64,000 bases of DNA, from positions 20,648,001-20,712,000 of the forward strand of contig CM075988.1 of assembly GCA_038087875.1 (NCBI GenBank), given 5' to 3'. Every line of letters starts with the position of its first letter. Position 1 is the stretch's first letter. The notes below the pieces were generated by a model that saw only the letters and a program-made list of their open reading frames with translations, was not told the DNA's origin and did no database searches. Shown here piece after piece: positions 460-38,100 of this stretch. The translations under genes and the position numbers were made by a program. The stretch comes from Malacoraja senta. Its lineage: Eukaryota.

Positions 460-651
460 CGTGTAAGAAGGAACTGCAGATGCTGGTTTACACTGAAGGT
501 AGACACAAAATGCTGTTGTAACTCAGCGGGCCAGGCAGCATCTCCAGAGAGAAGAATGAATAATGAAGGGTCTCGACCCGAAACGTCACCTATTCCTTCT
601 CTCCAGAGATACTGCCTGACCCGCTTAGTTACTCCAGCTTTAAGTGTCTAT
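460..651. mobile_element. PLE pLTR-only insertion with inverted 5' piece (fold-back). Similar copies at ~9433-9594, 29630-29771, 35595-35762, 41045-41270, 43793-43962, 50695-50912, 58097-58298
   Basis: GGAACTGCAGATGCTGG...AACTCAGCGGG.CAGGCAGCATCTC followed by its reverse complement GAGAT.CTGCCTG.CCCGCT.AGTTACTCCAGC. Same sequence as the termini of the 11173-12536 PLE. Confidence 0.85.
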
Positions 652-13812: not shown

Positions 13813-14380
13813 GAAACCCACTACTATTTTACTTACTTTAAGTCTGAAGAAGGGTCTCAACCCGAAGCGTCACCCATTCCTTATCTCCAGCGATGCTGCC
13901 TGTCTCGCTGAGTTGCTCCAGCATTTTATGCCTTATTACTTTAATGCGTGTTAGGGTGTCACACACCTCCTACAAGGTAGAGGGCAGCATTGACTGGGCG
14001 AGAGGTTTAATCAGCAGTGCCAGTGTAATGACCTGAGATTAGGAGCTCAATGTAAATCTGGTTCCTCGGTGGCCCCATGGGATTCCTCCTTCCTCCACCA
14101 GGATCCATCCTGTGGCCCAGCTTTGGACTGAATGAACAAACCCAACACGCACGAGGCAGAGAGTTTTCACAGGATAACCACGCCTTTAATGCACGGTTAA
14201 TGCAAGGATATTACACTCTCGACAAAAAAACCCCCCCACAAAGTACCGGAATAACTCAGTGTGTCAAGCAGCATCTCTGGAGAACATGGATAGGTGAGCC
14301 ACATGTGGACTAGGTATTCCAGTGTGATATATCTTGAAAATACTTTAATTTAGCTACCTCTAACATTGTCCTCAGGCTTG

Positions 14381-14434
14381 GGGGTGGGAGATTGCAACCT
14401 TCACGTGGTCCGCCCTGTTTCAACGAATGCAATC
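14381..14434 (+). ncRNA. Minimal HDV-like self-cleaving ribozyme (essentially no P4) at the 5' end of a mini-retroposon
   Basis: Nested double pseudoknot paired by hand. P1 GGGGTGG 14381-87 with CCGCCCT 14410-16 (G1.U wobble). P2 GATTGCA 14390-96 with TGCAATC 14428-34. P3 ACC 14397-99 with GGT 14407-09. L3 TTCACGT 14400-06. G14417 available for P1.1. J4/2 CGAA 14424-27, putative catalytic C14424. Activity not tested. Confidence 0.85.
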
Positions 14435-14517
14435 AACCTGGCGTGCACAATCAAACAAGATCAAATAGAACAAGTTGTTCTACAACTTTAGGCTGTGCAC
14501 GCCGTATGCAAGAAGAA
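14381..14517 (+). mobile_element. ~137 bp non-autonomous retroposon: ribozyme head, stem-loop body, (AAG)n tail; probably mobilised by an Ingi/Vingi- or RTE-type LINE
   Basis: Perfect 11 bp TSD GTCCTCAGGCT (14368-78, 14518-28). Tail ...GTATGCAAGAAGAA(G). Body stem GGCGTGCACA 14440-49 / TGTGCACGCC 14494-503 encloses hairpin TAGAACAA-G-TTGTTCTA 14466-82. No pol III A/B boxes. Partner LINE is inferred. Confidence 0.85.
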
Positions 14518-17500
14518 GTCCTCAGGCTCTGCTTTCGGGGGCTCAGGAAGGATGGTTGGACAGGTCAACATGGACAAGCTGGGCCGAAGAGCATGTTTCC
14601 ATGCTGAATGACTATATGACAATGATGCCACACAGAAGACCATTTGGCCCATAACTCTTGTGCTAGACTTTATGAAGGAGCTCACGATATAACCTCATGC
14701 GCTGTGCTTCACGACACATGTTTCTCTGCATACCCATGAACTTATTCCAGTCCAGAACATTATCTACTTCCACGTTGAAAGTGCGTGCCTGAACTTCATC
14801 CACCTTTTTAGTTAGCACGCTCCAAATCACAGAAACTCCCTGGATTATTGCAAATCATATTGTCATCTTCGTCAATGACAATACTTCATTTAAAATATTT
14901 AAGACAATAAAGCCTATCCAACCATTAATGAATAGTCTCTGATTCTCCAGTCTCACTTCCTTGTTATTCTGATGGGTTTTTTCACATTGTGTCCATTTAA
15001 AAACCAAATAGAGTAAGAAGTAAAAGATGAAATTCTTCCAAATCGTTTTATTTGGACATTGTTGTTTGGCCTCTGCAATAAATGAATGACATGCCAGTTG
15101 ACTACAGTGAATTAACCCTGGTGTAAATAAATGGCAAAAGAATTAAATGGAGGTTGACAGTACGAGAGAGAATAAGTTGATTGTAGACATAGAGCTATGC
15201 AGATGGTAACAGGCCCATCTCTCCCATTGCCCCACCACCCTATTCCCCTTCTCCCCATCCCATTCCACCTATAATCCCTTCACCTGGTTTCACATTTCAC
15301 TCTTTTAGTTTAGAAATACCGCGTGGAAACAGGCCCTTCAGCCCACTGAGTCTGCGCCGACCAGTGATCAACCATGCACTAGTTCTATCCAATTCTGTCC
15401 CTGCAGCCCATTCTGCCAGCCCATACTCATGATCAATACCTGATTGCAATCTTTATTAATTGGAGTTCCTCCGTATATTCAAAACTATTTTGTGCGTGAA
15501 GATAAAGCAGAGGTTGATGTTAATGTCAGGGCCAGCACAGGGTTTAAGGAATGGATCTAATAGCCAAGCCCTTGACCACTCAGCTCAGTCCGTGATCACC
15601 AAACCACATGGCTTTGGAATGTGTGATGTGTATTTGGGGTTGCACAGTGGTGCATGGTAGAGCTGCTGCCTCACAGCGCCAGAGACCCGGGTTCGATTCT
15701 GACCTGGGATGTCGTCTGTGTGGAGTTTGCACATTCCCCCTGTGGCCACATGCATTTCCTCCAGGTGCTCCAGTTTCCTCCCACAGCCCAAAGACGTGCA
15801 GGGTTTGTAGGTTAAGTGGCCCTCTGTAAATCGTCCCCTAGTGTGCAGGCAGTGGATGTGACGGTGAGACAGAATAGAGCTATTGTGAACGGGTATTCGA
15901 TGGCTGGCTAAAGGGCCTGTTTCCATGCTATATCGCTAAACTAAACTACCCAAAACTCTCGGAAACTGAGCTAAGTCGTAGCTAACTCAGAGTTAAGCGG
16001 CAGCTGAAGAAAAGGATTGTTATAATGAAGCAGCTGATGAGCAATGTTGCTTGGAACCCTCCAGAGAATAGGGCAAGCAGGAAGGCATGCATCCCAAATG
16101 TGGAATGTTCTGCATCTGCTGGATATCTATAAATACTTTCACAGATGATAAGTTATCTCCATGCGAGGCACCAGTTACTGAGGAGAGTCCTGTGTTCTAG
16201 CAGTGGATTATTATGAGGTTAAAGTCTTGCGTTCCAGGAATAACTACACATTTGCAGTCACATTACTGGTGAACCTTGGGGTTGTTGTGTAACTGGGACT
16301 TTAGAATGTTTGAAGCTGCCTTACATCAAGATACTGAATGTGCAAAAAAGCATTTGTTGTTTTTGTTGAGACAATGTGCTTATAGATACAGGAAACGTCC
16401 GGACTTATCAAACAGACAGACCACAGGGCAGCGCAGAAGGAATTAAAGAGTAGGATTTCACAACCCACCAGGGGTTGGGTAACGTGTGCCTGAGACACAA
16501 AATGGTGTCAGGAACATTAAATCTGCCATCATTCTCATGCTCAAACTCAGGACTTTTCGGCCTTCCAGGGTTTGAGGTGCAGAGAGCTAGCATAGAAGAA
16601 GAAAGGTTTTATTCCACAGGTTTCTGAACGGCCCTTCCAAAAGCTAGGTTACTGTCTGATTCACCTCTACACCATTGCAAACATTGGACTTTGTCTATGA
16701 AACTAATGCACTACAATGCTGAGAACTATATTCTGCACTCTGTTTCTCTCCATTTGCTCTATCTATTATACTTATATTACACTGGTTAGCACGTAACAAA
16801 AAACTTTTCACTGTACCTCAGTACACCTGACAATAAACTGAACCAAACTAAATTTGGGTTTGACTTGATTGGATGTGTTGATGTGCAGTATGATCTGACT
16901 TGATTGGAGAACATGCAAAACAAAGCTTCTCACTGTACCTTGGTACTGAAAATAATAAACCTTGACCTAAACCTGTTAAAATCAATCACTACAGTCTTTT
17001 GTGTCAAGTTACAAAGAAATCCTAATGTTAGGGGCTAGCCAATTGATAGTGAGAGCATATCAACAGAGGTGCTTCTTCTTACAGTACATACAGAACCCAC
17101 ATCGCCCTCATGGCAAGATCCTGATCCTACATCATGAGCTTATAAGTTTGTGTTCATAAGTCACAGGAGCAGAATTAGGCCATTAACCCATTGAGTCTAC
17201 TCCACCATTTGTTCATGGCTGATCTATCTTTCCCACTCAACCCAATTATCCTGTCTTCTCCCTGTAATGGACAATAGACAATAGGTGCAGGAGTAGGCCA
17301 TTCGGCCCTTCGAGCCAACACCGCCATTCAATGTGATCATGGCTGATCATCCCCAATCAGTACCCCGTTCCTGCCTTCTCCCCATATCCCCTGACTCCGC
17401 TAATTTTAAGAGCCCTATCTAGCTCTCTCTTGAAAGCATCCAGAGAACCTGCCTCCACCGCCCTCTGAGGTGGTCTTTGCTAATTAAGAACCTTACTAAT

Positions 17501-17623
17501 TAAGAACCTGTCAATCTCCACTTTAAAAACACCCAATGACTCGGCCTCTACCGACATCTGTCGCAATGAATTCCATAGATTCACCACCCTCTAAAGAAAT
17601 TCCTCCTCATCTCCTTTTTCAAG

Positions 17624-17742
17624 GTATGTCTTTTTATTCTGCGTATGAGTACATCCTTTTATTCTGAGTATGTCCGTTTATTCTGACTACGTCCTTTAAT
17701 TCTGAGTACGCCCTTTTATTCTGAGTATGTCCATTTATTCTG
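17624..17742 (+). repeat. Minisatellite, ~6 copies of a ~19 bp unit CCTTTTATTCTGAGTAYGT, at the break of a CR1 fragment
   Basis: Direct reading; the unit derives from the adjacent CR1 sequence GGTAYGTCYTTTTATTCTG. Confidence 0.85.
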
Positions 17743-18837
17743 AAGGATACAAAAGACAAAGCCAGGTCATTTCTGAACATCTGCTGGCAGGGGCTATTCC
17801 CCACAGGTAATGCCTATACTGCTCAACCAAGCTTGGAAACTTTAGCAGCTTATTTGTAGTTTAACAGAGTCATAGAGTCATAGAGCAAAGAAACTGGCCC
17901 TTTGGCCCAACCCGCCCATGCTGATCAAGATGCCCCTTCTAAGCTAGTCCCATTTACCTGTTTTGGCTCAAATTCCTTTCCTATCCATGTACCTGTGCAA
18001 ATGTCTTTTAACTATTAATATTCTTCAGATCACGTTCAGGGCCCTTTGATTATTTACATTGGCTGTCATGTTCTTTGGAACACGCAGTTTTCTCAATGCG
18101 TATGTACCATAATCCCATTAGTCAAGAGAGTCTTTGACGTTCCAGCTTCTCAAACAACATAATAATTTTGAAGAAATTCAACTTTGCACCAAGAACTTAG
18201 AGACTCAACAAATAAATTTCTTTAAGAGTGTTGTCTTGTAAATAAAGCTCTATCTCTTGAGTTATAAGTTTACTTGATCTCGATACATTCATGGAGACAT
18301 TACAATTCTGGTAAACTGGAATTTGTTGAAACTGTTCTGTGTCTAAATTCACACCATTCTATTCACCCATCACCAGTTGCTTTCTGATGATATTTGGTTG
18401 TTGGTTAAAGTCCTTGACTTTAATATAATAATTCGCAATTGTAGATTCTCTCCGTTGTTTAACGCCTCTCTGCTTTTGCAATTTCCTCCAGGCTTAAAAG
18501 CCTCCGACATCAATGTGCTTTTCCAAATCTGTCAATTTAAACAAAACTCAAAATGCTGGAGGAGCTCAGTGGGCCAGGCAGCATCTGTGGAGGGAATGGA
18601 CAGGAGGCACGTTGGATCAGAACCCTTCTTCAGAGTGAAGAATTGTCTCAAAGTGAAACGTCACCTGTCCATTCCCTCCACAGATGCTGCCTGAACCACT
18701 AAGTTCCTCCAACACTTTGTGCTTTGGTCAAACATCTGCAGTTCTTTGTGTCTGTCATCTTAAAGGTTCTCAAAGTCCTTCACTCCAGTACCATGGGCAT
18801 GTCTTCAGCTCCAAGTGGCCAAGCTCTGGAGTTGCCT

Positions 18838-19402
18838 CCATAACTGCGTACAGTTTTGGTCTCCAAATCTGAGGAAGGACATTATAGCCATAGAGGGAGT
18901 GCAAAGAAGGTTCACCAGACTGATTCCTGGGATGTCAGGACTTACATATGAAGAAAGACTGGATAGACTTGGCTTATACTCGCTAGAATTTAGGAGATTG
19001 AGAGGGGATCTTATAGAAACGTACAAAATTCTTATGGGGTTGGACAGGCTAGATGCAGGAAGATTGTTCCCGATGTTGGGGAAGTCCAGGACAAGGGGTC
19101 ACAGCTTAAGGATAAGGGGGAAATCCTTTAAGACCGAGATGAGGAAAAACTTTTTCACACAGAGAGTGGTGAATCTCTGGAACTCTCTGCCACAGAGGGT
19201 AGTTGAGGCCAGTTCATTGGCTATATTTAAGAGGGAGTTAGATGTGGCCCTTGTGGCTAAAGGGATCAGGGGGTATGGAGAGAAGGCAGGTACGGGATAC
19301 TGAGTTGGATGATCAGCCATGATCATATTGAATGGCGGTGCAGGCTCGAAGGGCCGAATGGCCTACTCCTGCACCTATTTTCTATGTATCTATGTATCTA
19401 TA
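18838..19402 (+). mobile_element. CR1/HER1-like LINE 3' fragment (young)
   Basis: CVQFWSPNLRKDIIAIEGVQRRFTRLIPG..FFTQRVVNLWNSLP to stop at 19303; 3' UTR with GGGCCGAATGGCCT stem and (TCTATGTA)n tail. Confidence 0.92.
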
Positions 19403-22400
19403 ATCATCTTCACCTGTTTTTCCTCTTGTAAGTTTGTTCTCCCTCTTCAACCAATATTAGTTGCTAGTGCTTCTGAGAACCATCTTTGAATGTTTTACAT
19501 AGTAAAGGCACTTTAAATGGAAATGGTTGTATTTATATAATTTATAATGGACAGTTGATGGACAGTAAGAACAGTTTTTCTTCCTCAATACCTTTTATGT
19601 ATTTGTTCAAGATTGTCAGGGAGGATGTTCATTCAAAATGACTACGTACAGAGAAAAAGAGTTCCTTTGTCTCACTGTCCAAAGCTGGCAATGTGCTGTT
19701 CTGATATTTTCTATGCCTGTCATATGGTTGAACCATTCAAGATCTCAGAGTGAGTTGGCTGGTGTTTTATCTGCTCTCTGAAAGCAATTAGGGTGGATTT
19801 TTTCTTATGACAAGGCCATTGTTTTGTTAAATGTTACTGCAGTCTAGTTTGGTTTAAGTAGAAGTTAGCTATGATGGTTGACTCAGTGGGAGTTCTGAAG
19901 ATTAACACAGTTTCTATCCATAAATGCATCTTATGGCATCTTATCACATCGACCCACAACTGCGGGTTTGAATTCAATTGATCATTTTTTATTTATTTTT
20001 TAAGTCATGATTTCGCTCTGCACTCATCCACATAAGGACACTACACTTGGCATGCTGACAAGTGATGTTTCCTCTAGAGCTCCTGCTGATTATTGGACTG
20101 CTCATGAAATATGATCCAAAACAATATTTTTCCACTTGAAAAGCGATCCAAAACCTATGTTCCAGCATTGAACCATTAATTTCTAATTAGCCCCCCTACA
20201 AATTTACAATTGCATATGTGCATCAATTTTTTGCAGCCTGAAAATAAAAATTCATCAATGAGACAGACGCTGAGATGGAGATGAGATGGGGCATTAAGAA
20301 TGGTGTATCTATGAGGCTCATGGATATGCAGGGATTTGAGGGATATGGATCAATTAAAGGCAGATAATTGGTTTATCTGGATATTATGTTCATCACAGAC
20401 AACGTGGCCTGACGGGCCTATTCCTATGCTCATGGAACATTGAGTTAGTTTGCAACTATTTATTTTTATTGCTTTGCAGGGTTTAATGTGCAAATAATGT
20501 ATATGAAATTCCAACATAATTTATGATAATCTAGGCATAATCTATGAATAACACTTAGAATTCATGTTTTTGTGTGTTCCCTGAGTCTACATGCCTGTGA
20601 TGCTACTGCAAGCAAGACTTTCATTGTACCTGTACCTCACCACAATAAACTTGATAAGCAGCGGAATACACAATATCTGCCAACTCACAAAGAAGGGTCT
20701 CGACCCGAAACGTCACCCATTCCTTCTCTCCAGAGATGCTGACTTTTCCTGCTGAGTTACCCCAGCTTTTTGTGTCCATCTTTGGTTTAAACCAGCATTT
20801 GCTGTTCCTTCCTACACAACTCACAATTTAATATGCTTGTTATGATCCTGTTGCATTTGGAGAGCGCAGAAAGTTTCCATTTAAGGACCAATTAGTTTGA
20901 ATTAAGAGATAAATAAAGCTAACAAATATCTCGGTGCTTAAATGCTGACAAGGAACCTCCTCTTGCGTGTAATTGGGATACAGGCGATGACAACACGTTA
21001 AATTCCCAATGGGGTGGCAGTCGAGGCCATGAGTGGCATAAGCATTCATGGTGATGCCAGCACTAATTTCCAGGAGACATTTATTTGTATTCATATAAGT
21101 AACTTGATAAATGTATATTTTGATGCGATGTCAACTTATATTGACTTGGACAAAACTCAAAGTGTTTCTATTAAGTTTATTTAATTAATGCGACACCACT
21201 TTTCTCTGCATGCACTTTGGAACTAGTCCTAATCCAGCTCAATGGAAAGCCATCAGCACTGCCATTCATTTGTTTTAACTATTTGGCCTCAAATTTGAGA
21301 TTAGACAGTGCCTTAAACATAAACAAGGACCATGGAAGGTCAGTGATTAATCATTGGCGTAAAGCTCCAGCTTTCACTTTGGAATTTAGGTTTAAGTCTA
21401 TTTTAGCTCATTCTGCTGATGACAGTCACTCAGTAGAACATTTGAAATAACATTCCCAATCTAGCCGACATCCCCTCTATTGAAACACACAAGTGGTGTG
21501 CAACGCACACAGCTAGTTGCACGCAACTGTACCCAATATGAGGGTAGCTGATGATCAGTACTTTTTCCATGGTTAAGCACCAACCTGGGCGGCACAGTGG
21601 CGCAGCGGGTAGAGCTGCTTCCTCTCAGCGCCAGAAAACCCGGTTCGATCCTGAACTCGGGTGCTGCTTGTGTGGAGTTTGGAATGTTCTCCCTGGGACT
21701 GCATGGGTTTCCTCCGGGTGCTCTGGTTTCCTCCCACATCTCAAAGACATGCAGGTTTGTGGGTTAACTGGCCTCTGTAAATTGAGACGTGGGATAACTA
21801 GTCTGAATGGGTGATCAACGGTCGGCGTGGACTAGAACAGTGGGGATATTCGCAGAGGTTGTGGAACCCAGCACAGTATTACATGAGCGTTAGACACTGG
21901 AATACCTCTCTCATTGGGCATGTCAGAGATAATTTGTCAACAGAATCAGTGCAGTGGGGCAACGGTACAGCGGCTGCCTCACAGCGGCAGAGACCCACAT
22001 TCGATCCTGACCTCAGGTGCTGATTTTGTACATTCTCCCTGGACCGTGTGCTCCAATTTCCTCCCGCATCCCAAAATACGTGCAGGTTTGTAAGTTAATT
22101 GGCCTCTGTAAATTGTTGCTAGTGTTTCGGATGAAAAAGTGGGATAACATAGAACAAGTGTATGGGTGATCGACGGTTGATATGGACTGTTTCATTAGTT
22201 CATGTCATAGTAGCAGAATTAGGCCATTCAGCTCATTGAGTCTCCTTCCCCTTTTAATCATGACTGATCTATCTTTCCTCTCAACCCCATTCTCCTTCCT
22301 TCTCCCCATAATCCCTGACACCCTTACTAATCAAGAATCTGTCATCCTCCACTTTAAAAGTAGACAATAGACAATAGACAATAGGTGCAGGAGTAGGCCA

Positions 22401-23957
22401 TTTGGCCCTTCGAGCCAGCACCAGCAATCAATGTGATCATGGCTGATCATCCACAATCAGTACCCCGTTCCTGCCTTCACCCCATATCCCCTGACTCTGC
22501 TATCTTTAAGAGCCCTATCTAGCTCTCTCTTGAAAGTATCCAGAGAACCGGCCTACACCGCCCTCTGAGGCAGAGAATTCCACAGACTCACAACTCCCTG
22601 TAAGAAAAAGTGTTTCCTCGACACCGTTCTAAATGGCTTACCCCTTATTCTTAAACTGCGGCCCCTGGTTCTGGACTCCCCCAACACCGGGAACATTTCC
22701 TGCCTCTAACGTGTCCAAACCCTTAATAATCTTATGTGTTTCAATAAGATATCCTCTCATCCTTCTAAACTTCAGAGTATCCAAAGACCTGCCTGTGGCA
22801 ATGAATTCCACAGAATCACGACACTCTAGCTAAAGAAATTCCTCCTCAACTCCCTTCTAAAGGCACGTCCTTTTACCCTGATACTCACTAGTGGAATAGT
22901 CCTATACACACCCACTAGTGGAAGCATCCTCTCCACATCCACTCTATCCGGCCTTTCATTATTCAGTAAGTTTCAATGAGATCTCCCCCTCAGCCTTCCC
23001 AAACTCCAGTGAGTGGGCTGAAGAGTCCATTTCCACACTGTCTCACTGAAAACTAAAAGCACAATAAAAAAACTGAAGGATCATTGTAAGATCATTTGCC
23101 AGTAACATAGATGAGAAGAGGGGACTAAATTCTGTAAACCTCTACAATATTAAGAAACCCAGGTAGCTAAATTTTGTTCCCATGGGATCCCAAGGAAAAA
23201 AAGAGTGATGTAATAATGTGACTGGAATAGCTCAGTGAGTTACGTGCAGCGGAATTATGGATTGAACAAAGCTAATTGTTCACAGTGTGTACAATGACGT
23301 AATTGGGGCAATGAATGGGGTGGACACATTGGGCTTAATGACCCCTTTCTGTTCAGTAAACCTTCTGTGTCTACAGTCTCTGTATATTTTTCTCTTTTTC
23401 AATACTTGTCATTTTCCTTGCCACTTACAGAGTTGCTCATTTCTAATGACTGCAAAGGTTAGTAGCCAACTATTTAACATGTTATATCTAATTTAGAGAC
23501 ACAATTCAGCACCACTGGAGGTTCCTGCGAATTCTTTCCCAAACTATCTTCACCAAAATTCAACTCCAAAATTAAACCCAAATCTAAAAGAGCACATTAT
23601 ACGCTGGATAAAATCTTTTATTTCTCACTAATGTTGCTTGAACAATGGAACGGTTTAGAATATTGTATAATCTTGAGAAACCCATTATAGTATCTAATAC
23701 AAAAAAGGGAACGTTACAAATATACAGCCTGACTGAAATAATTTTCCCAAAATATCAGTTACATAATTCCAGAAATATTCTCACGAACCGCACAGCACAT
23801 CTGAAAACATGGAGAAAAATTGCTTTCTTCCTGTCGATTCCTTGAAATTAACTCCTGGTGTGTGTTTCAAACCCACACAGAGGATCTGACGGTGTAACTA
23901 TGGTCCACACACTTCAGGGAGAGCTGTGACATGAAGCCAAGGCAAACACTAAAAAGC

Positions 23958-24398
23958 TTGTGCAGGAAGGAACTGCAGATGCTGGTTTACACCGAAGATA
24001 CACAGATTGGAGGAATAGCACCTCATATTTCGCTTGGGCAGCTTATAACCCAGCGGTAGGAATATTGACTTCTCTAACTTCGTAACCCTCGCTTTCCCTC
24101 TCTCTCCATTCCTTCCCCACCCTACTTCTCCGACCAGTCTGAATGTCCGCCTGATTACATTTTACATCGTATGCCTCATTGTCCCCTTCCCCTAGCTAAC
24201 ATTGACCTAATCTACATTTTCCTTGATCTTAGTCCCCTTTGGTCTCTCGTTTTTCACACATTACCCTTCCATAATCTTCCGTTTCCCTCTCCCCTGACTG
24301 TCAGTCCAAAGAAGAGCCTCGACCCGAAACATCACCTGTTCCTTTTCACTAGAGATGCTGTCTGATCCACTGTTACTCCAGCTTTTTGTGTCTATCTT
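23958..24398 (+). mobile_element. PLE 3' fragment (inverted 5' piece, GIY-YIG end, pLTR)
   Basis: TTGGAGGAA..GCACCTCATATTTCGCTTGGGCAGCTTA matches 12172-12210; ends in pLTR. Confidence 0.8.
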
Positions 24399-25217
24399 CT
24401 ATTGCCTCGGCCCCTTTAAGTCCCTCTCTCTCTCTCTAACAAGGCAATAATGTCCCTTCAATTTATGCAAGTCAATGTGTACCAGGAATTAATTGACCAA
24501 GCTTTGATCACATAAATTACAAGTGATTAGCGGAAATACTAAAGCTTCCACTCTGAAAATAATGAGCAGTTGAATAGAAACGTTGGATATCTGTGCATAG
24601 ACACCATTTGAAGATGAAAGTGGCAGAAGGATTTACCACAGTCTCTTGTGAAAAGTGAAACCGCTTTGTCCATTCAGCAGCATTGTGGGTTATGTGCCTT
24701 TGTGTCATTTTCATGGAATAGCTACATCAGTCTAATCTGCCCTGATAGACTCAACAATCCAGTTGGAAGCATTTGCTGGTCACAATATAATTATCTCATC
24801 AAAGTTTATGAACTGTTCGAGGTTCAGTCAGGAACACAGAGGGCAAGATGTTAGCATTAATCTATTTTATCAGCGCACTTTACAAACAGTTTCAACCTCC
24901 ACTATATGGCGTGGATGTTTTGATTCGAAAATTTCATGAATAAGGATTTGAAAGGCAGAAAGGATATTCCAGTTCGATCATTGCCCTGCAAAACTAGATG
25001 TCGAAATCAACATGCATTTGGGTCAGTAATAGAATGGAATTAATCTGGGCAATGCCCGTCAATTAGAACCTTGCTTTCTCAAGCCAAGGATCTTCAGAAA
25101 TAGAACATAGAATAATACCACACAGGAACTCTCTCCCCCTCAGTGTGTCTCTGCCCCAGGTAGTGTAGAGAATAATTATTGTGGGGAAAGAGCAGCATTA
25201 ACCATAGCCTGAACAAA

Positions 25218-25537
25218 TGGGGCGGCACGGTGGCGCAGCAGTAGAGTTACTGCCTTACAGTGCCATAGACCTGGGTTCTATCCTGACTACGGGTGCTGTC
25301 TGTACGGAGTTTGTACGTTCCCCCTGTGACCACATGGGTTTTCTCCCGGTGTTTTCCGGTTTCCTCCCACACTCCAAAGACGTGCAGGTCTGTAAGTTAA
25401 TTGGCTTCGGTAAGTTGTAAAATTGGCCCTAGTGCGTAGGATAGTGCTAGAGTACGGGGTGATGCTGGTGGTCTCGGACTCGGTGGGCCGAAGGGCCTAT
25501 TTCCGTGCTGTATGACTGAAGTCTAAAGTAAAGTCTA
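25218..25537 (+). mobile_element. HE1-like V-SINE. Further + strand copies at ~2083-2200, 2294-2590, 15641-15948, 21587-21832, 21955-22190, 31276-31725, 42450-43015, 51281-51588, 62843-63116
   Basis: GGGCGGCACGGTGGCGCAGC..GTAGAGTT head, V-domain and GGGCCGAAGGGCC tail. Confidence 0.88.
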
Positions 25538-28500
25538 AGTGTTCCATCTGGAGTTACACTTGGGAACAGAGTGATTTATCGTGATATAATTATGAGCAAA
25601 ACTGTAAATTAAAAATTCCAGCTCAATGAAATTAGGACCATCTGTGCAATTGAGACAGTTATCTAAACTATCTGAGCATTTGGGGCAGTTTAGTTCTGCA
25701 TCGTTGGTGTCATGATTGCAGTCATGAGCATAGACACTCGGTTCACGGCCAAGGTTCCTGACGTCCCTGGTGAACTGGGAGGCAAAGTTGCTGAGTCTGA
25801 AACACATGGGAAGATGTTATAGCAACCACTCTGATGCAGAGTGTATGGCAATGGATGAGGCCGACTCATGTGGGTTCAATTTTTTACGCACTTTGGATTA
25901 TTGCTCAATGTCTCCGGGACATAATATTCTGGGCAAGAATTGTTTCCCCACCAAGATTTTAATTGAGGCATTTAATACTTTAACTGCTCCATTTGTACCA
26001 CCTGAGTGAAAGACGGGGCCTGAGGGGATGTGTGCCGTTGGATGGATCTGTAAGAGTCTCACCTGCGATTAGATGCGAGTCATGAGAATTCCAGCTCACA
26101 CGGAGAAATGGATCGCACGGTTGACTCAGTGGGCTGAAGGGCCTGCCTCCGTGCTGTATCTCAGAACTAAACTGAACCAAAATAATTAACAGTGGAAACC
26201 CACAAGGTCACAGGGAGAACATGCAAACTTCACATGGAAAGCACCCGAGGTTCGGATTGAACCAGGGTCTCTGGCACTGTGAGGCACCAACTCTTTATCG
26301 TGCCGTCCTTATTTTGCAACATTTTTTTATTTCCCTATTTAAAAATTTATGAGATGTGTGTGGAAGTAATAAATATTTTACTGGATTAAAGTTATCCATT
26401 TGGATTTGGCCATCTTTGTTTATTGACTGATGCGCGGGTGAGTTTAGGTTAAATATGCTTCATTAGAATGGGATGTGTTGTGCATGTCATGTTTTTAATA
26501 AATGTCCCGTAGAAGGCTACAGTAACAAATATTACATTATCTCTTGGCACCATAATTTCAATTTTTGATTATTTAAAATCCCAAAATAGTTATAGTTTAC
26601 AAAATTGTTTACATCTATTTACAACTATTATAACTATTTTCTATTACTCAATTGTGAAATATAAGTGATATTCTTTATGAATCTGTTTAAGAAAGAACTG
26701 CAGATGCTGGAAAAATCGAAGGTAGACAAAAAAGCTTCTTTAACTATATGTATCAATCCTTCAAGTTATAAATCTTCATTAAATTACAATTAGAATGGGA
26801 AAAATGTCACCAGAGATTTAGCATTTACGTGTTTAAAGAGACGGAACAAGACGTGAAGGTGTGTAGGTTAATTGGTTTCTGTAAGCTGTCCCTAGTGTAT
26901 GGGATAGAAGTTATGTACGGGTAATTGCTGGTCGGTGTGGACCCGGTGGGCTAAAGGGCATGTTTCCATGGTGCATCTCTCAAAATAAGCTTTAAAAAAT
27001 ACATAATTCAAATACAATTTAATAAGTGCTTGTCAAATTTAAAGCAACATGTTTTGTTTAGTTGAGTTTAGTTGAGTTTAGTTTAGTTAAATTTAGTTTA
27101 GAGATTAGTTTAGATGATGCAGCCTTCGTGAATAGTAGCTCTCTGGTCAAGAAGGTCTTCAGTGTATTGCATGCCCCTCTCTGAGAGTATGTAGCTCAGT
27201 TATAGCACTGGAAGTGGAAGTGGCCAGCTACTCTGAACAACCCCATGAATTGTTGCTATCTGCACCTACGCTTGTCCCACTTGGCCGAGGATAATCCTCT
27301 CGAACCACAACTGTGAGCTTGGCTGTGGGGAAATGTTGTAACATGGAAACGGTTAGCGAATGCATTTTTGTTTTAAGTGATTGCTGACAGCGTTGGACAT
27401 TAAACCAATGACATGTAAGAACATGAGATTTATGTGGAGTTAGGACAATTTTGAACAACGGAATGTTCAGAAGTGTCCAATACCCCCATGGTTCAATGAG
27501 CCTTCTCAAAGTTTGAAATAATATGAATAAAATTATTGAGAATGTTCCAGTATAACTCACACTCCCGTGGACTGGTTGTTCCCCAACGCACTTTCCAACA
27601 CTATCTGACCCAATTGCTCTTGGACATCATCTGTTGGAATAATTCTATCCAAATTGTTTACCTCCCTCAGACCTGTGTGAAATGTCGAAGATGCTGCTAC
27701 ACTTTTTGACAGCCATCTTCATTATCTGCCGAACCAACACACTTTTGTATCATCTGCAAACTTGCTAATCATGCCATGTACATTCTCATCCAAATCATTG
27801 ATATAGATGACAAACAGCAATGGGTCTAGCACTGAACCCAGAGGCACACCACTAGTTACAGGCTTCCAGTGCAAAAAGCAATCTTCCACCATCAGCCTAC
27901 CCTTACACTTCACACCTTACCTTTCACACCTTACCTTTCACACCTTACCCTTCCATATCTCTAGATTCACTCTACTCTGACTCTCAGTCCGAAGAAGGGT
28001 CTCGAACCGAAACATCACCCATTCCTTCTCTCCAGAGATACTGCCTGTCCCACCGAGTTAATCCAGCATTTTGTGTCTATCTTCAGAATATGTAAACATA
28101 GCATCTGCAGCTCCTTCCTACAAATTCCACTATCACCCTCTGCTTCCTTCCATGAAGCCAATTTTCTATCCATTCAGTTATCCTTCCTTGGATCCCATGT
28201 GCTCAAACCTTCCAGAGCAGCCTGCCATGCGGTGTAGAATTGCTAGTCTTATTCTTTCTCATAATTCCATACTCCCTCCACACTGGCACCTGGCACCAAG
28301 TTTTAGCTGCAGTTTTCGGCTTGTGTCTTCAGAGTGAGATTTGAACCTAGTACCGGCTGATCCAGAGTGAGCCGTCCGACCCACAGACCCACAGCTGATG
28401 CACCATTGATTCATAGACCACAACATGGAGGCATATGAGCAGCTACTAATTGCTGGCCAGTTACTAGGGATATGTCTGTAATTTGTCAGCCGATGAGTGG

Positions 28501-30419
28501 AAGTATAGGTTGGGAGGTTGCCAAAGAGTTATAGACCACGGCAGGAGAAGTTGAATCATAAGGAAAAGGCGAAGAAATCAAATGAATAACTTTGATCTGG
28601 AAGTTACATGGCAAACCATTGAGAAATGGTGGACAACTTTAAGTGTAGAATGAATGAGGAAGTGAAAGAAATTAGTATCAGCAAAAGCTGTAGTGTTGAT
28701 GAAATCAATGAGACTAAAATTTGCTACATCTCCAGGACAAGATGATTTGAATTCCAAGGTTTCAAAGAGGTAACGGGAGAATAGGGAAATAATAACATTT
28801 AAAAGACATTTGAACAGGTACATGGATAGGAAAGGTTTTGTGGGATATGGGCCAGGCACAGGGAAATGGGACTCCTTAGAGATGCAGTGTGGAATGAGGC
28901 AAATTCAGCCCACCGAGTCCATGCTGACCATCAATCGCCTTTAGACTTTAGAGATACAGTGCAGACACGGTTGTTGAGGCAGGCACAATCACCACATTGA
29001 AAAGACATTTAGGCAGGTACATGTATAGGACAGGTGTGGAGGAAGATGGACCAGACAAATTCAAATATGAGTAGCTTAAATGGAGCATCTCGGTTGGGAT
29101 GCTTGAGTTTTGTTTTTAGTTTTTAGAGATACAGGGTGGAAGCAGGCCCTTCAGCCCATCGACTCCGTGCTGACCAACAATCACCCATACACTAGTTCTA
29201 TCCTACACAGTTGGGACAATTTACCGAAGCCAATTAGCCTACAATCTTTGGAATGTGGGAGGAAACCGGAGCGCCTGGGGTAAACGCGGTCACAGGAAAA
29301 ACATTAAAATTCCATACAGAACGCACCGGTAATCAGGTCTCTGGCACTATAAGGCAGCAACTCTACCGCCGTGCCACTATGCTGCCTGAGCTTGGCTGAA
29401 GGGACTGTTTCCATGCTGAATAACTCGGTAACTCCATGGCTCTGCCAAATTCCGAATTAAACCTCTTTTTGATCATCTGTACTATTTTGCGTGGTTAGTC
29501 AGTGGTGTGTTGCCCACAGTATATGTCTCTCCACAAAATAGATGGTTATGCAAATTGAGAGAAGTCACCGGGTGTGCGGTCTATTCGAGCTCAGTTGCAC
29601 AGTAAAGCATGTTAAACTCAGAAGAAGTGAGTAAGAAGGAACTGCAGACGCTGGTTTAAACTGAAGATAGACACAATAAAGAAGGGTCTCGAGCCGAAAC
29701 GCCACCCATTCCTTCTATCCAGTGATGCTGCCTGACCCGCTCAGTTACTCCAGCATTTTGTGTCAATCTTCAGAAGAGGTGATGCAGGCTTCGTTTGGGT
29801 GAATGACTGCCCTTCCAACTGACTGATGCCTGACATGTATATAAGACGCTTCACAAGTGCAGAGGTCCAATCGGCTGGCAGCAACACTCTCATTTGTGCA
29901 TGTTATGGCAACAGTGTGGGACACAGATGGGAATTTATATAAAAAACACATTTATCGGGAAAATAGGAAACCTTGACCTTCAAATCCCAGAGACTGCAGT
30001 GAAATTCAACCTTCAAATTCCTATTAGAGCAAAAGCAAATAATTATTCACATTGTTGGCTTTAGTTATCCAATACACTGCACACTTGGAGTCTGCATCCA
30101 GCAGTGACTTCGACATCCCCAGAGATGGCAACCAGCATTTTGTATGGTGTTGAATGGTCCACAGTGTTTAGGTTAGTTTAGATTATCCCAACGTGTCCGT
30201 ACTGACCAGAGATCCCCGCAGCCCGTTCCATATACCTACCACCCTTTGTGTAAAAAGGTTCCCCTCAAGTTCCTATTAAATCTCCCCATCCTCACCTTAA
30301 ACCTATGTCATCTAGTTCTCGATTCCCCGATTCTTGGTAAAAGACTGTGTATTTACCCTATCTATTCCTCTCATGATCTTGTACACCTCTAGAAGATCAC
30401 ACCTCATCGATTGCAGATC

Positions 30420-30925
30420 TGCGGGTGTATGGCAGAGAGCATCACAACCTGGTTTGATAAAAGCCCAGGAACGAAGGAGGCGACAGAGAGTAGTAGACAC
30501 TGCTCGGTCCTTCACACCTACTGACCTCCCCACCATCGAAGGGATCTATGTGAGGTGCTGGCTCAAAAAGGAAGCCAAGATCATTAATGGCCCACACCAC
30601 CCTGCTCTTATCTCACAGCTACCATCGGGAAGAAACTACAGGAGCCTGAGAACATGTCACCTCCATGTTCAAGAGTAACTTCTTCCCAGCACCATCAGAC
30701 TCTGGAACACTACATAACATTAACCTCAACAATAACAAGGTTATTGGATTTAGTTTTTTGTTGCATTGCAAATGTTGGTTTTACACTATTATAATTACCT
30801 AGTATTGCTGTTATTATTTTATTGTATTATTAATGACAGTATATTTATTTGTGTGTTATTGCATTAATGAGCATGGTGCCCTGCAGAAAATAAGAATCTC
30901 ATTGTTCCATTGCCAGTAGGTATGA
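30420..30925 (+). mobile_element. Old Rex1/Babar-like LINE 3' fragment. Related 3' ends at ~160-740(-), 9190-9635 plus 11063-11150(-), 16600-16975(+), 52360-52720(+), 62620-62840(+)
   Basis: QRVVDTARS....LPTIEGIY...LKK..KII..PHHP....LPSGR.YRSL; the 62.6 kb copy reads RRLRNSFFTSVIRPLN. Confidence 0.75.
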
Positions 30926-31534
30926 AAATTAAACTCTCTTGACTCTTATTGGGACAAAGATTCACACCTGGTTTCCATTTTCATTTCTTGTTAAACATTT
31001 ACCTGCTGGGATTTGCTTCCACAGTCACCACCGGCTAATCCTCGTTATTTATGACCCTCATTTTGTGGGTCTTTCCCAAGTGACCGTTTCATATGTGTCA
31101 GTACACGTTCTGTGGGTCAGAGGATTATTCGACGCTGGGGTCTGCCCCCATCCTTTTGCCTTTCACTGTTTGCTTTACTAATCAGTGTCAACAACTCCAG
31201 AAGAGTTTCTGAAAACTGAACAGGTTTACAGATGTAATTAATAAAGAATCCTGTGCCTCTTGCCCCAGGAGGAGTGGGCGGACGGCACAATGGCGCAGCG
31301 GCAGATTTGCTGCCTAACAGAGCCAGAGACCCACGTCCGATCCTGACTACGGCTGCTGTCCTACGTTTTACGTTCTCCCTGTGGTGGGTTTTCTCTGGGT
31401 GCTTCGGTTTCCTCCCGCAATCCAAAGACACGTGGGTTTGTAGGTTAATTGGCTTCTTTATAATGTCCATATAGTGTAGGATAGAGGATAAGGGTGATTG
31501 TTGGTTGGCGTGGACATGGTGCACCAAGGTTTGT

Positions 31535-31627
31535 GGGATGCAAGCAGAAGCCTCCACGTGGCGCATCCCGGGCAATGCTGGCGACAGAAACTGTACCACA
31601 GTGACTGACTGAAGTAGCCAATTCTGC
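31535..31627 (+). ncRNA. HDV-like self-cleaving ribozyme with long P4 at the 5' end of a second mini-retroposon
   Basis: P1 GGGATGC 31535-41 with GCATCCC 31563-69. P2 GCAGAA 31544-49 with TTCTGC 31622-27. P3 GCC 31550-52 with GGC 31560-62. L3 TCCACGT 31553-59. P1.1 GG 31570-71. P4 region 31573-31617, imperfect in this copy. J4/2 CCAA 31618-21. Confidence 0.85.
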
Positions 31628-31694
31628 AACCACCAACCGTCACTGACCGACCGGAAAGACGTGATATAGAAGATGGCCGGACACGAGGAAGAAG
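31535..31694 (+). mobile_element. ~160 bp non-autonomous retroposon (ribozyme head, AAG tail) inserted into the 3' tail of an HE1-like SINE
   Basis: Perfect 10 bp TSD ACCAAGGTTT (31523-32, 31695-704). Tail ...GGACACGAGGAAGAAG. Host SINE resumes with ATCTCT..CTAAACTAA. Confidence 0.85.
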
Positions 31695-31807
31695 ACCAAG
31701 GTTTATCTCTCAACTAGTCTAAACTAAGATCCTGCAAGATTTGTCCATTTCCAAGACATTCAGAAGTCCCTTTAGGAATCTTAATTCAGCCTGCAAACTC
31801 AGCCCGT

Positions 31808-31835
31808 CTGAAGAAGGGTGTCGACCCGAAACGTC
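31808..31835 (+). ncRNA. Minimal hammerhead core in solo PLE pLTR (31806-31938)
   Basis: CTGAAGA-A-GGGT(GTCG)ACCC-GAA-ACGT-C. Confidence 0.7.
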
Positions 31836-32097
31836 ACCCATTCCTTCTCTCCAGAGATGCTGCCTGTCCCACTGAGTTACTCCAGCTTTTTGTGTCTATC
31901 TTTGGTTTAAACCAGCATCTGCAGTTCCTTCCTAAACACTTGGCGATACTCTGGTGCGACAAGTCCATGCCATTTCAGGGACAAGGTGTGGACCTGGCAC
32001 ACTAAGCAGTGATCAATCCACTGGTATGAACGAGAATTGCATGAGCACTTAGATGCAATTGAAAATTGTGAAATGTGTCCAGTTAGCGCAGGGCAGT

Positions 32098-35167: not shown

Positions 35168-38100
35168 TAGGGTTATCCGGGAGATTCTGTACAAACTAAT
35201 GCAGATGGTGTCATTGTTATTATATTCTTGTAAGAGAAATAAGTATTTCTGTGGATCCCTCTCCAAACATCAGTGAATAGTTCTTGGATTATGTAAACAT
35301 TGTTACAGTTATTATTTGAACTAGAAACATGTTCTGTTGAAATAGCTCCCTGATAGAGGCAACACAAGTAGACCGAGTGGTACATATACGGTGTATGGTG
35401 TGCTTGCCTTCATCGGTCAGGGCATTGAGCATAAGGGTGACAGGGATTATGGGGAGAATGCAGGAGAATGGGGTTAAGAAGGAACGATAGATCAGCCATG
35501 ATGCAATGGTAGAGTAGGCTTGATGGGCCAAATGGCCTAATTCTGCTCCTATCACTTATGAACATGAACTTTTATAAGTCAGAAAGTCATGATGTAGAAA
35601 GAAAGAACTGCAGATGCTGGTTATACCAAAAATGCTGGAGTAACTCAATGGGTCAGGTAGCATCTCAGGAGAAAAAGGATAGACCCGAAACATTGTCTAT
35701 CCTTTTTCTGCAGAGATGCTGCCTGACCCGCTGAATTACTCCAGCACTTTGTGTCTATCTTCAGAAAGTCTTGTTGCAGTTTTATAGGACTTTGGTTTGG
35801 CTGTATTTGGAACATTGTGTATAGTTCTGGTTGGCCTGTGACAGGAATGATGTGAGGCTTTGGGGAGGGTGCAGAGGAGTTTTAGCAGAGGTTTACCAGA
35901 ATGCTGACTGGGTTACAGTGTAAAGGGACCAGTGATGAACGCAAAACCATTGGAGGATAGTTGGATGAACAGTCCATTTGGGTTTCGGCCCGAAATGTTA
36001 CCTATTTCCTTCGCTCCATAGATGCTGCTGCACCCGCTGAGTTTCTCCAGCATTTTTGTGTACCTTCCCCAATATATTTATCAGATTACACATCCACTTT
36101 GGATTTGTTTTCCTCTGTGCAAAGCATAAATCCTCAGTTGGAAATTGGGTGTGAGGGGATTGTGGGTCACTAACGCATGTGACAATAAACTAAACTAAAC
36201 CTCTGACTGGAGAATCTAGATATTTTAGATCATTGCCTGATCGATGAACATGAAACTTCTCCTTGGGATCAGTCCTGCATCTATGTTCAGTGCCAACTCA
36301 TGATTTCTGGTGGTTCAATTTTGTTTATGGTTCAACAAAACCATCTCAAAAAAGTTCCCATTCATTGTAAACTTTAACGTGAGAGGGGAAAGATTTAATA
36401 GGAACCTAAGGGGCAATGTTTTTACACAAAGGCTGGCGCGTACATGGAACGATCTGCCAGAGGAATTGCACCCATTACAACATAAATACATTGGGTTATA
36501 TCTTGCACTCCCACAGGGCTTTAAACCTTATGAAGGAAAAAAAATAATATTTACTAATTTCTTGTCAGGAGTGACCAACTTTGTTGAAACCTTCCTGAAA
36601 CAATTACATGATAGTAATCCCTAAAAACATGCAATGAAGGAAAAGTATCCTTACGATTTAAGATAAATTCTCTGGGGGCCGAGAGGATGGGTTTCACAAT
36701 AGAAAGCATCGAAATATAATTGTATTTTGAGTGGGAGAGAATGCTTGCTGATTGAAAGCCCCTGCTGAGAAGTGGGGATGTTGGTTTCAGTAGGGAATGG
36801 CCAGTGTAGGGATTGAGAGACAGCTACATTGCAGCAAGCCCTGTAATACTATGCCTTCTTGGCAAAGCATTGACAAGCTATGTGACTGCTCCGGAAATCA
36901 GTCATTATAAAGAAGGTTCTGTTCCATAACAACAAATTGCTTCATGTTATTTCATGCGTTGTATGCATCTTTATCTGCATCTAATTGCCTTAATGCCTTC
37001 AGCCAGAATATTTTCACTCAGTTCCTCCAACTGGACTCACACAAACTTTCTTTGGAAGACATCATGTCTGTGAGCTGCATATGATTGTCTGGGTCTCCGA
37101 CCTGATGTGTGTTGGCTTTCTCCAGGTCAGTGGGGATGGGACTATCTAACAAGCAGAATGTGCGGGCCGTCACGCCCGAGTGTTGAAAGTACAGCGACCA
37201 CCCACAACCTCACCATCTCTGCCAGAAGCACTGGCACTGTCTCTGGCAAACAGAGGCTCATCAGATGGCTGATCTGAAATGGGGTTCATACATCAAACAG
37301 GTACATCTATGGAACTTTATTTGTCACATGTGCCGAGGTACAGTGAAATTCATTTTTGTACACAGTTCAGTACAAGTATCACTATACATAAGCACTTAGA
37401 TATATCTTAGATAAGCTTCTCAGATACACTGGAAGTGTGTAGCAGTAGTTCGCTAACACAGTATACAGAGTCACCAGTTTGGCGCTGTTTTCCTGTCCCC
37501 GTTGTTTTGGTGGTGTTGAAGGGTCAGCCTGGCTAAGTGTAGCTGTGGTGTCCTCCGCCGCTGCTCCACCATCATAGGCCATGTGCAGTCGGGCAGATTC
37601 AGGGGTGATACGATGGACAAAGGAGGTGGCAATGGGTGATGACTCTACAGAGTTGGATTTGGACATGGGAATAGGCAGGGGTTCTCAAGCAAAGCAAAAA
37701 GATACCAGATGCAGATGTCCACCAGAGAAGGTCCCACCATCATTTTCAGTGGTGGATACCTCAGCAGTAGCTCAATAAGAACAACTCTCAAAAACCTCTT
37801 CAGCCTTCAGGCCTGTCAATTTTTTTCCATTTGAGACCCATCCACTTTATAGATGTGGAAGCATTGCAGCAATGACATAAAAGTAGGAATCTCACTCTGA
37901 ACATCTCCGTCCTGCACTCAGACCAATGGATGTTTGGAGGACTATCCTCTTGGATTTACGAGGATATTTCCAAGACTCAAGGGCCTGAGCTATAGGGAGA
38001 GGTTGAGCAGGCTGGGACTTAATTCCTTGGTGCGCAGGAGGATGAGGGATGATATTACAATGACAAAATCATGAGAGGTATAGATCGGGTAATTGAGAAA

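What the first reader, a model, noticed from the sequence alone, without database searches (positions are those of the whole stretch)
14381..31694. Shared design across the two ribozyme elements suggests a class of ribozyme-SINEs with one partner LINE lineage
Seen: P1, P2 and P3 differ in sequence between the two elements but keep their pairing, which is natural covariation. Both have L3 TYCACGT, AACC immediately after P2, a short 3' body, an AAG-repeat tail, 10-11 bp TSDs and 2 extra nt at the 5' junction. Inference: two hits in 64 kb imply many genomic copies, hence many potential self-cleavage sites in introns and selection on their orientation within genes.
Basis: inference. Interest (0 to 1): 0.78.

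Follow-up and report, generated by a model that had tools for sequence, protein, structure and literature searches.

The report
Two ribozyme-headed mini-Vingi retroelements, different parents
These two short repeats are cut-down copies of two different Vingi-type jumping genes, each starting with a predicted self-cutting RNA; the front and back ends of such genes are predicted to pair, which would explain why the cut-down copies keep both ends, and sister genes carry near-copies of the mammalian CPEB3 ribozyme, its likely source.

Summary
Both elements are real. Each starts exactly at the predicted cut site of an HDV-like ribozyme fold and has a target-site duplication. Exact 21-base cores occur 6,127 times (e1) and 251 times (e2) in the genome. 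The two extra 5' bases are not a family trait.

They are not SINEs with one partner. Each is the fused 5' and 3' end of its own Vingi-type LINE, both found full-length here; the parents share 31-36% protein identity and sit in different subclades. This is a known kind (bipartite non-autonomous LINE, SIDE).

Three additions:
(1) In 15 of 15 families tested, the bases after the ribozyme pair with that family's own 3' end.
(2) 7 of 11 inverted insertions flip just the head.
(3) Sister heads pass Rfam's CPEB3 cut-off (up to 64 bits against 35); one family shares even the P4 stem.

This scan had already noted mini-Vingi elements and the CPEB3 link in other genomes; my look-ups found no note of the end-pairing helix. 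Cleavage, intronic location and orientation bias are untested.

The parts
14368..14378 (+). e1 left target-site duplication, 11 bp, followed by 2 extra bases (14379-14380)
   Evidence: sequence
14381..14434 (+). e1 minimal HDV-like ribozyme, 54 nt: P1 14381-87/14410-16 with a G-U first pair, P2 14390-96/14428-34, P3 14397-99/14407-09, L3 14400-06, one-pair P1.1, stub P4, catalytic-position C at 14424; predicted cut 5' of 14381
   Evidence: identical in layout to the 5' end of full-length LINE-A (L276, L266); activity not tested
14435..14455 (+). e1 remainder of the LINE-A 5' head: AACC linker, then the left arm of the end-pairing helix (14440-14449)
14475..14517 (+). e1 part taken from the LINE-A 3' end: last codons and stop, right arm of the helix (14494-14503), terminal motif, AAG tail
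   Evidence: 44-nt match to LINE-A 3' ends at 84-93%
14518..14528 (+). e1 right target-site duplication
31523..31532 (+). e2 left target-site duplication, 10 bp, followed by 2 extra bases (31533-31534)
31535..31627 (+). e2 HDV-like ribozyme, 93 nt: P1 31535-41/31563-69, P2 31544-49/31622-27, P3 31550-52/31560-62, L3 31553-59, two-pair P1.1, long P4, catalytic-position C at 31618
   Evidence: Rfam HDV 28, F. prausnitzii 26.3, CPEB3 24.3 bits, all below cut-off; same head on full-length LINE-B (L133, L194)
31628..31642 (+). e2 remainder of the LINE-B 5' head: AACC linker and left helix arm (31633-31641; this copy has a 7-nt deletion and pairs 7 of 9)
   Evidence: arm read by eye
31650..31694 (+). 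e2 part taken from the LINE-B 3' end: last five codons and stop, right helix arm (31672-31680), terminal motif, AAG tail
   Evidence: 45-47-nt match at 93-98% to 10 of 10 LINE-B 3' ends
31695..31704 (+). e2 right target-site duplication

Best explanation
e1 and e2 are the joined 5' and 3' ends of two different Vingi-type LINEs, likely copied in trans by the parent's protein after the predicted ribozyme frees the RNA from a host transcript. Shown: parentage of both ends, the 5' boundary at G1, TSDs, copy numbers. Inferred steps: (1) read-through or internal transcription; (2) self-cleavage 5' of G1 sets the 5' end; (3) the 8-12 bases just behind the ribozyme pair with the bases just before the terminal motif, so the RNA's two ends are held together and the signal read by the reverse transcriptase needs both ends; (4) target-primed reverse transcription starts in the AAG tail and gives a 10-12 bp TSD. 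Step 3 would explain why deletion derivatives keep both ends, and why the second target strand so often primes just behind the ribozyme and inserts an inverted head. The shared design reflects constraints common to the clade, not a shared partner.
For: Parents: LINE-B 3' ends found by a pattern that excludes e2 itself; full-length L133 and L194 carry the e2 head and tail. LINE-A found the same way; full-length L276 (11-bp TSD) and L266 carry the e1 head. An older e1 subfamily still has LINE-A's longer head (L213, L215). Precise 5' end: 24 of 30 unbiased e1 copies align from base 1; 28 of 30 e2 copies are full length; in four runs from four organisms, 229-523 contigs have a loose end exactly before 14381. 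End pairing: cognate head/tail duplex mean -18.4 against -9.5 kcal/mol non-cognate over 15 families; 0 of 100,000 permutations as good, 2 of 100,000 for the 8 own-genome families; each family p <= 0.046 against shuffled heads; in 11 of 15 the best helix starts 3-5 nt after P2 and ends 0-2 nt before the terminal motif, with different sequences. At least 17 of 30 e1 copies carry a change that removes the parent's helix mismatch. Inverted heads: 7 of 11 inversions in copies picked by RT or 3' end stop at RNA nt 79-138, where the e1/e2 5' parts also end. A single TSD bounds several of them: L271 and L126, where it runs 2-3 nt into the head match, and L296, L306 and L309.
Against: No cleavage, transcript or retrotransposition data. 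The helix is weaker or off-register by the ungapped score for A, B, D and F7; the cognate tail ranks only 2nd-5th for 6 of 15 heads. In 3 of 5 full-length RNAs, 2-5 of about 300 internal windows bind the head as well as the tail does. Five of the 15 families are close kin. Inverted heads were seen in 0 of 8 LINE-C, 0 of 30 LINE-D rows and 0 of 5 LINE-E copies. The automated TSD search found no TSD for 5 of 7 A/B inverted heads, partly through mis-placed tails. Sampled LINE-A and LINE-B copies are about 84-96% identical to one another and none seen was intact, so the driver of the youngest e1/e2 copies was not seen.
Confidence: 0.8

Rival explanations
1. One reading: one class of ribozyme-SINEs that all ride one LINE lineage.
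For: Shared L3, AACC linker, AAG tail and 10-12 bp TSDs; both parents fall in one single-ORF clade apart from the two-ORF outgroup. Cross-mobilisation by a still-active sister (LINE-C or D, about 97% alike between copies) cannot be excluded.
Against: Each element matches a different LINE at both ends. The parents are 31-36% identical and in different subclades. The helix sequences are family-specific.
Confidence: 0.1
2. The head/tail complementarity is a by-product (for example of template jumps that copy one end from the other) and has no function; the 5' part is kept only for the ribozyme or an internal promoter, as argued for R2 SIDEs and Pr77.
For: R2 SIDEs need only a ribozyme and a 3' end (PMC3414825, passages). 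L1Tc's first 77 nt are both promoter and ribozyme (PMC8256844 passages; PMC3383444 listing only). Some internal windows pair as well.
Against: Fixed register at both ends across distant families; two-sided changes between close kin (L315, L318, L320); mismatch repair in later e1 subfamilies.
Confidence: 0.2
3. The likeness of Vingi heads to the mammalian CPEB3 ribozyme is convergence on a good HDV-fold sequence, not descent.
For: R2 and HDV share 21 of 27 core bases (PMC8256844 passage). No mammalian flank could be examined. e2 scores only 24.3 bits and e1 gave no CPEB3 match.
Against: Stems vary freely among these heads, yet L330 matches the Rfam consensus at 35 of 37 positions from G1 through P1' and 11 of 12 at the 3' end, and family F6 also matches the dispensable P4 stem (counts by eye). 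Over-cut-off heads map to one subclade.
Confidence: 0.2
4. The ribozyme fold is an inactive relic and the elements spread without cleavage.
For: No activity test; e1 has only a one-pair P1.1 and a stub P4.
Against: The 5' end sits on G1 in most copies; 16 of 30 unbiased e1 copies keep an intact core by ungapped check (these were picked by a core pattern); covariation across families.
Confidence: 0.07

Closest known systems
Bipartite ORF-less non-autonomous LINEs: Vingi-1_EE derivatives, RIME, NARTc, Bov-A, RTESINE (Kojima 2018, PMC5786205, passages and section 23 read)
   Same: Only the 5' and 3' ends of the parent LINE, made by internal deletion; reported only for RTE, Ingi, Vingi and R2.
   Different: [quoted passage not shown] The passages read mention no end-pairing helix or inverted heads.
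R2 SIDEs (Eickbush and Eickbush 2012, PMC3414825, passages read)
   Same: 5' HDV-like ribozyme plus the parent's 3' end; not polymerase III elements, so called SIDEs rather than SINEs.
   Different: R2 SIDEs are site-specific, rare and 500 bp or so; these are dispersed, 140-190 bp, in hundreds to thousands of copies, from APE-type parents.
L1Tc/ingi Pr77 ribozyme with NARTc, RIME, SIDER (PMC4035085, passages read)
   Same: Sister clade; ribozyme at the exact 5' end; short derivatives keep it; cleavage shown there in vitro.
   Different: Trypanosomes; Ingi has RNase H; promoter activity of the head was not tested here.
Mammalian CPEB3 ribozyme, Rfam RF00622 (Bendixsen 2021, PMC8233481, passages read: not found outside mammals)
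   Same: Sister-family heads in this genome pass the cut-off (39 of 51 matches at or over 35 bits, best 64.2); same segment lengths; F6 shares the P4 stem.
   Different: e1 and e2 themselves do not pass. CPEB3 is single-copy, intronic and conserved; these are mobile-element heads.
Twin-primed 5' inversions of L1 (recalled, not read)
   Same: Inverted 5' segment within one TSD, with short matches at the joints; L259, L274 and L189 look classical.
   Different: 7 of 11 inversions here take only the first 79-138 nt and skip 1-2.9 kb, which points to a fixed second priming site.

Membership tests
Bipartite non-autonomous LINE / SIDE | 5' part matches the parent's 5' end and 3' part the same parent's 3' end; no ORF | tested here: met
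Bipartite non-autonomous LINE / SIDE | Multiplied as a unit, with TSDs and the parent's tail | tested here: met
   27 of 30 e1 and 28 of 30 e2 unbiased copies full length, 24 of each with a TSD
SINE in the strict sense | Head derived from tRNA, 7SL, 5S or snRNA with a polymerase III promoter | tested here: not met
   The head is the LINE's own 5' end; no tRNA at either element; Rfam gives only ribozyme models
Vingi clade (parents) | Compact single ORF with AP endonuclease and RT (PMC13708176 passage) | tested here: met
   About 3.1-kb elements; 986-1,014 aa ORFs in LINE-C and D with PF14529/PF03372 and PF00078; A and B show the same layout in degraded form
Vingi clade (parents) | No RNase H domain | tested here: met
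   No RNase H hit in 6 proteins scanned, among them the complete LINE-C ORF and the C-terminal 440 aa of LINE-B; LINE-A not scanned, but it aligns to LINE-C up to residue 961 of 1,014
Vingi clade (parents) | Groups with named Vingi elements, sister to Ingi | not testable with these tools
   No named Vingi or Ingi reference was available; the tree has only an unnamed two-ORF outgroup that I label Nimb from recall; no Vingi structure among PDB matches. The name Vingi rests on the two rows above plus recalled C-terminal motifs.
HDV-like ribozyme | Nested double pseudoknot with conserved L3 and a C in J4/2 | tested here: met
HDV-like ribozyme | Self-cleavage 5' of G1 | not testable with these tools
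   Only indirect: 5' ends at G1
Rfam CPEB3 ribozyme RF00622 | Score of 35 bits or more, for e1 and e2 | tested here: not met
   e2 24.3 bits; e1 no match
Rfam CPEB3 ribozyme RF00622 | Score of 35 bits or more, for sister heads (LINE-C, F6-F9, L330, L320) | tested here: met
Rfam CPEB3 ribozyme RF00622 | Orthologous place in a CPEB3 intron | not tested
   The heads examined are dispersed and attached to LINE sequence; no orthology is claimed

The most novel reading that the evidence does not exclude
Vingi RNAs are closed into a loop: a self-cleaving head is followed by a strand that pairs with the element's own 3' end to form the signal its protein reads. That one feature explains the bipartite miniatures and the fixed-site inverted heads. 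The mammalian CPEB3 'memory' ribozyme is a stranded head of this kind, from a lineage close to family F6, kept in an intron after its body decayed.
Probability: 0.55. Interest if true: 0.87.

Novelty: new variant of a known kind. Interest (0 to 1): 0.72.

Why it matters
1. It offers a testable answer to a question Kojima 2018 leaves open: why only a few LINE clades throw off two-ended miniatures.

2. It gives an outgroup and a likely origin for the CPEB3 ribozyme, which Bendixsen 2021 could not root because none was known outside mammals. The human genome does hold Vingi relics (X12_LINE, PMC5753468 passage; one pre-amniote Vingi protein fossil, PMC9004415 table).

3. Vingi-1_Acar is used in two-RNA gene-insertion platforms with donor RNAs flanked by its 5' and 3' UTRs (PMC13708176 passages), so a cleaved 5' end and an end-pairing helix bear on template design and on inverted or truncated products.

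4. Thousands of intact-looking ribozyme cores make intron orientation bias measurable once the genome is annotated.

Tried and rejected
- A DNA search of the genome with the e1 3' 80 bases found no candidates; the tool skips very common words, so this is no evidence.
- The Pfam endonuclease search returned two-ORF LINEs without a ribozyme, not the partner.
- A 5'-side exclusion pattern for e2 gave 12 matches, read as indel variants, plus one inverted head.
- Gene context: 50 of 186 unmasked frames were scanned and none passed a Pfam cut-off, so intronic location is unknown.
- No RNA holder listed for the e1 locus. Contigs cannot show RNA ends. No empty-site joint was among the 15 of 95 joints shown.
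- The strict descriptor found heads upstream of only 4 of 27 near-full-length metagenome elements; more were read by eye or by Rfam, and several show none.
- Automatic parsing mis-registered five heads, so its 210 of 224 tally is not relied on.
- L306 was dropped from the tree for low coverage (46 of 47 rows kept).
- Kojima 2011, Ruminski 2011 and Webb 2009 are not held; they, Repbase entries, patents or unseen supplements may already record Vingi ribozymes.
- Literature searches: CPEB3 + ribozyme + Vingi 0 papers; Vingi + ribozyme 6 papers, of which the 2 read in passages do not place a ribozyme in Vingi; searches listed nothing on end pairing or a Vingi origin of CPEB3 (listings, plus passages).
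- Rejected: fold-back of the first cDNA strand as the source of these inverted heads, because 1-2.9 kb between the two pieces is missing and the head abuts the TSD.
Full report
OBSERVATION. e1 (14381-14517) begins with a 54-nt HDV-like fold and e2 (31535-31694) with a 93-nt one; a structure descriptor found these two and nothing else in the window, and nothing in 1.02 Mb of shuffled window at the same setting. All 16 compared P1-P3 pairs hold in both; 7 differ on both sides. The Y in L3 goes with the second base of J1/4: C with G in e2 (two-pair P1.1), U with U in e1 (one pair). Across 15 heads, 87% of cells pair and 12 of 17 pairs show two-sided change, against 0 of 500 shuffles and 35-51% pairing when partners are slid. 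TSDs are 11 and 10 bp. The 2 extra 5' bases are present in both window copies but are not typical: the TSD abuts G1 in 16 of 24 e1 and 22 of 24 e2 unbiased copies with a TSD.

COPY NUMBER AND AGE. An exact 21-base core occurs 6,127 times for e1 and 251 times for e2 in the 1.94-Gb genome; reversed-pattern controls gave 0. Five e1 copies lay in 1.05 Mb of unselected DNA, 4 with the core intact, which suggests 6,000-10,000 copies. Unbiased full-length copies average 94% (e1) and 96% (e2) identity to a majority-type copy. e1 is abundant in four public runs from four organisms, with hundreds of contigs ending exactly before 14381. One contig in X23 spans this copy's 5' junction and one in X21 its 3' junction, so this insertion appears to be shared with relatives.

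PARENTS. A pattern holding the e2 3' end but excluding e2's own upstream letters gave 62 matches, 21 of them with one coding upstream sequence. These extend into a LINE (LINE-B); L133 and L194 are full length and start with the e2 ribozyme. e2 is nt 1-108 of that head, a short duplicated joint and the last 45 nt. The same trick for e1 gave 1,011 matches, 100 listed, of which 3 read as coding; a protein search with one of them gave LINE-A. L276 (11-bp TSD) and L266 carry the e1 head in sense orientation, and the last 44 nt match e1. So both are bipartite deletion derivatives. The genome holds further families: C, D and E (copies 95-98% alike; ORFs up to 1,014 aa with endonuclease and RT, no RNase H) and older F6, F7, F8. 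Each has an HDV-like head (C, F6-F8 by Rfam; D and E by eye). F9 is a third short family of about 190 bp with TSDs. In a FastTree tree of the RT region (46 of 47 rows), A and B fall in different deep subclades (supports 0.76 and 0.90-0.98) and are 31-36% identical, an underestimate because the copies are degraded. 'One partner lineage' therefore fails below clade level. The label Vingi rests on architecture (PMC13708176, passages) and recalled motifs; no named reference was in the tree.

END PAIRING. e1's strong body hairpin has its left arm from LINE-A's head and its right arm from LINE-A's 3' end, so in the parent these bases lie about 3 kb apart. I tested this on 15 families: 8 from this genome and 7 from metagenome contigs. 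Cognate head/tail duplexes average -18.4 kcal/mol against -9.5 for non-cognate; 0 of 100,000 permutations did as well (2 for the own-genome 8). In 11 of 15 the best helix, 8-12 bp, starts 3-5 nt after P2 and ends 0-2 nt before the terminal motif, with different sequences. At least 17 of 30 e1 copies have a change that removes the parent's one mismatch. Against: cognate rank is 2-5 for 6 of 15 heads, A, B, D and F7 are off-register by the ungapped score, five families are close kin, and in 3 of 5 full-length RNAs a few internal windows bind as well.

INVERTED HEADS. Among copies picked by RT or 3' end, 8 of 27 LINE-A, 2 of 24 LINE-B rows and 1 of 30 LINE-D rows have an inversion; none of 8 C or 5 E copies does. 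Seven of these 11 invert only the head, ending at nt 79-138 and skipping 1-2.9 kb; uniform priming would put about 3% in such a window (my estimate). Of 12 F6-F8 heads, 9 lie head-to-head with a Vingi 3' body, 1 is a sense bipartite copy and 2 have no adjacent body. A single TSD bounds L271, L126, L296, L306 and L309, in the first two running 2-3 nt into the head match; the script missed TSDs in 5 of 7 A/B cases. I read this as second-strand priming just behind the helix, the same place where the miniatures' 5' parts end. That R2 protein binds both ends of its RNA (PMC6765202, passage) is a loose parallel.

CPEB3 LINK. LINE-C heads score up to 63.8 bits on Rfam's mammalian CPEB3 model (cut-off 35). 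A genome search gave 51 matches among 59 scored, 39 at or over the cut-off and none in 14 control genomes. L330, a full-length-type Vingi on a metagenome contig, matches the printed consensus at 35 of 37 positions from G1 through P1'. F6 matches the P4 stem as well (counts by eye), though P4 varies from 6 to 48 nt among these heads. Over-cut-off heads that could be placed map to one subclade. F6 is old and rare: 2-5 contigs per run. [quoted passage not shown] Descent is inferred; no mammalian flank was examined. e1 and e2 themselves do not pass the cut-off.

WHAT IS KNOWN. Bipartite non-autonomous LINEs from Vingi, Ingi, RTE and R2 are described (PMC5786205, passages and section 23), as are ribozyme-headed SIDEs of R2 (PMC3414825, passages) and L1Tc/ingi (PMC4035085, passages). 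My searches found no paper joining CPEB3, ribozyme and Vingi, and none on end pairing, but three key papers could not be read. This scan's notes already hold 94 findings with the words CPEB3, ribozyme, Vingi, LINE and HDV in at least 7 genomes; I had reached that reading before opening them, and they are not independent support. Look-ups for end pairing and for two different parents gave nothing; one note describes a flipped head in another element and prefers fold-back.

VERDICT. Real, multi-copy and of a known kind. The added value lies in the end-pairing helix, the fixed-site inverted heads and the CPEB3 kinship. Interest 0.72.

Noticed in passing
L183 987-1116 and L184 985-1064 (read on the minus strand of the loci): LINE-C copies with 3-5 tandem repeats of the first 26-30 nt of the ribozyme at the 5' end, as if copying restarted at P3/P1.
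   Followed up: no
L024:441-526 (-): A further HDV-like head (F3) with two-pair P1.1, standing alone without a visible body; parent not found.
   Followed up: partly
L305, L307, L311-L314, L143, L006: Third short bipartite family F9 (about 190 bp, minimal P4, 12-bp end helix, TSDs); 1 copy in 260 kb of random DNA, so probably thousands; parent not found.
   Followed up: partly
L298:1568 down to about 1320 (-): Bipartite copy of the CPEB3-like family F6: head plus about 130 nt of LINE 3' end.
   Followed up: partly
G000 small contigs C2217, C2348, C1886, C517, C2327, C2790, C5921 (L164, L165, L176-L179, L201): LINE-D fragments truncated at the same base (1121) recur at about 10-kb spacing: a LINE piece caught in a large tandem array or segmental duplication.
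   Followed up: no
L320, L318, L319 heads: Second P1.1 pair reads G-C where other heads have C-G or U-U: covariation inside the pseudoknot core.
   Followed up: partly
L315, L316 heads: Heads with a J1/2 of about 20-25 nt that folds as its own hairpin.
   Followed up: no
L061-L090: Young two-ORF LINE family with many open 1,277-aa frames; no HDV-like head by descriptor within the loci fetched.
   Followed up: partly
window 521-628, 31780-31920, 35632-35747, 41064-41231, 58159-58278: Palindromic repeats that give weak plant-miRNA matches in Rfam; probably the genome's abundant inverted-repeat elements, not miRNAs.
   Followed up: no
window 53481-53555 (+): tRNA-Ala call by ARAGORN; probably the head of a tRNA-derived SINE.
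   Followed up: no
window 37385-37684 (-), 50951-51118 (-), 62341-62691 (-), 25538-25816 (-): Unmasked protein-like frames on the minus strand without a Pfam hit over cut-off; if they are exons, both elements lie antisense to the gene.
   Followed up: partly
L133 (element nt about 170): Full-length LINE-B interrupted by a 210-bp repeat and a 1,050-bp repeat nested just after the start codon.
   Followed up: no
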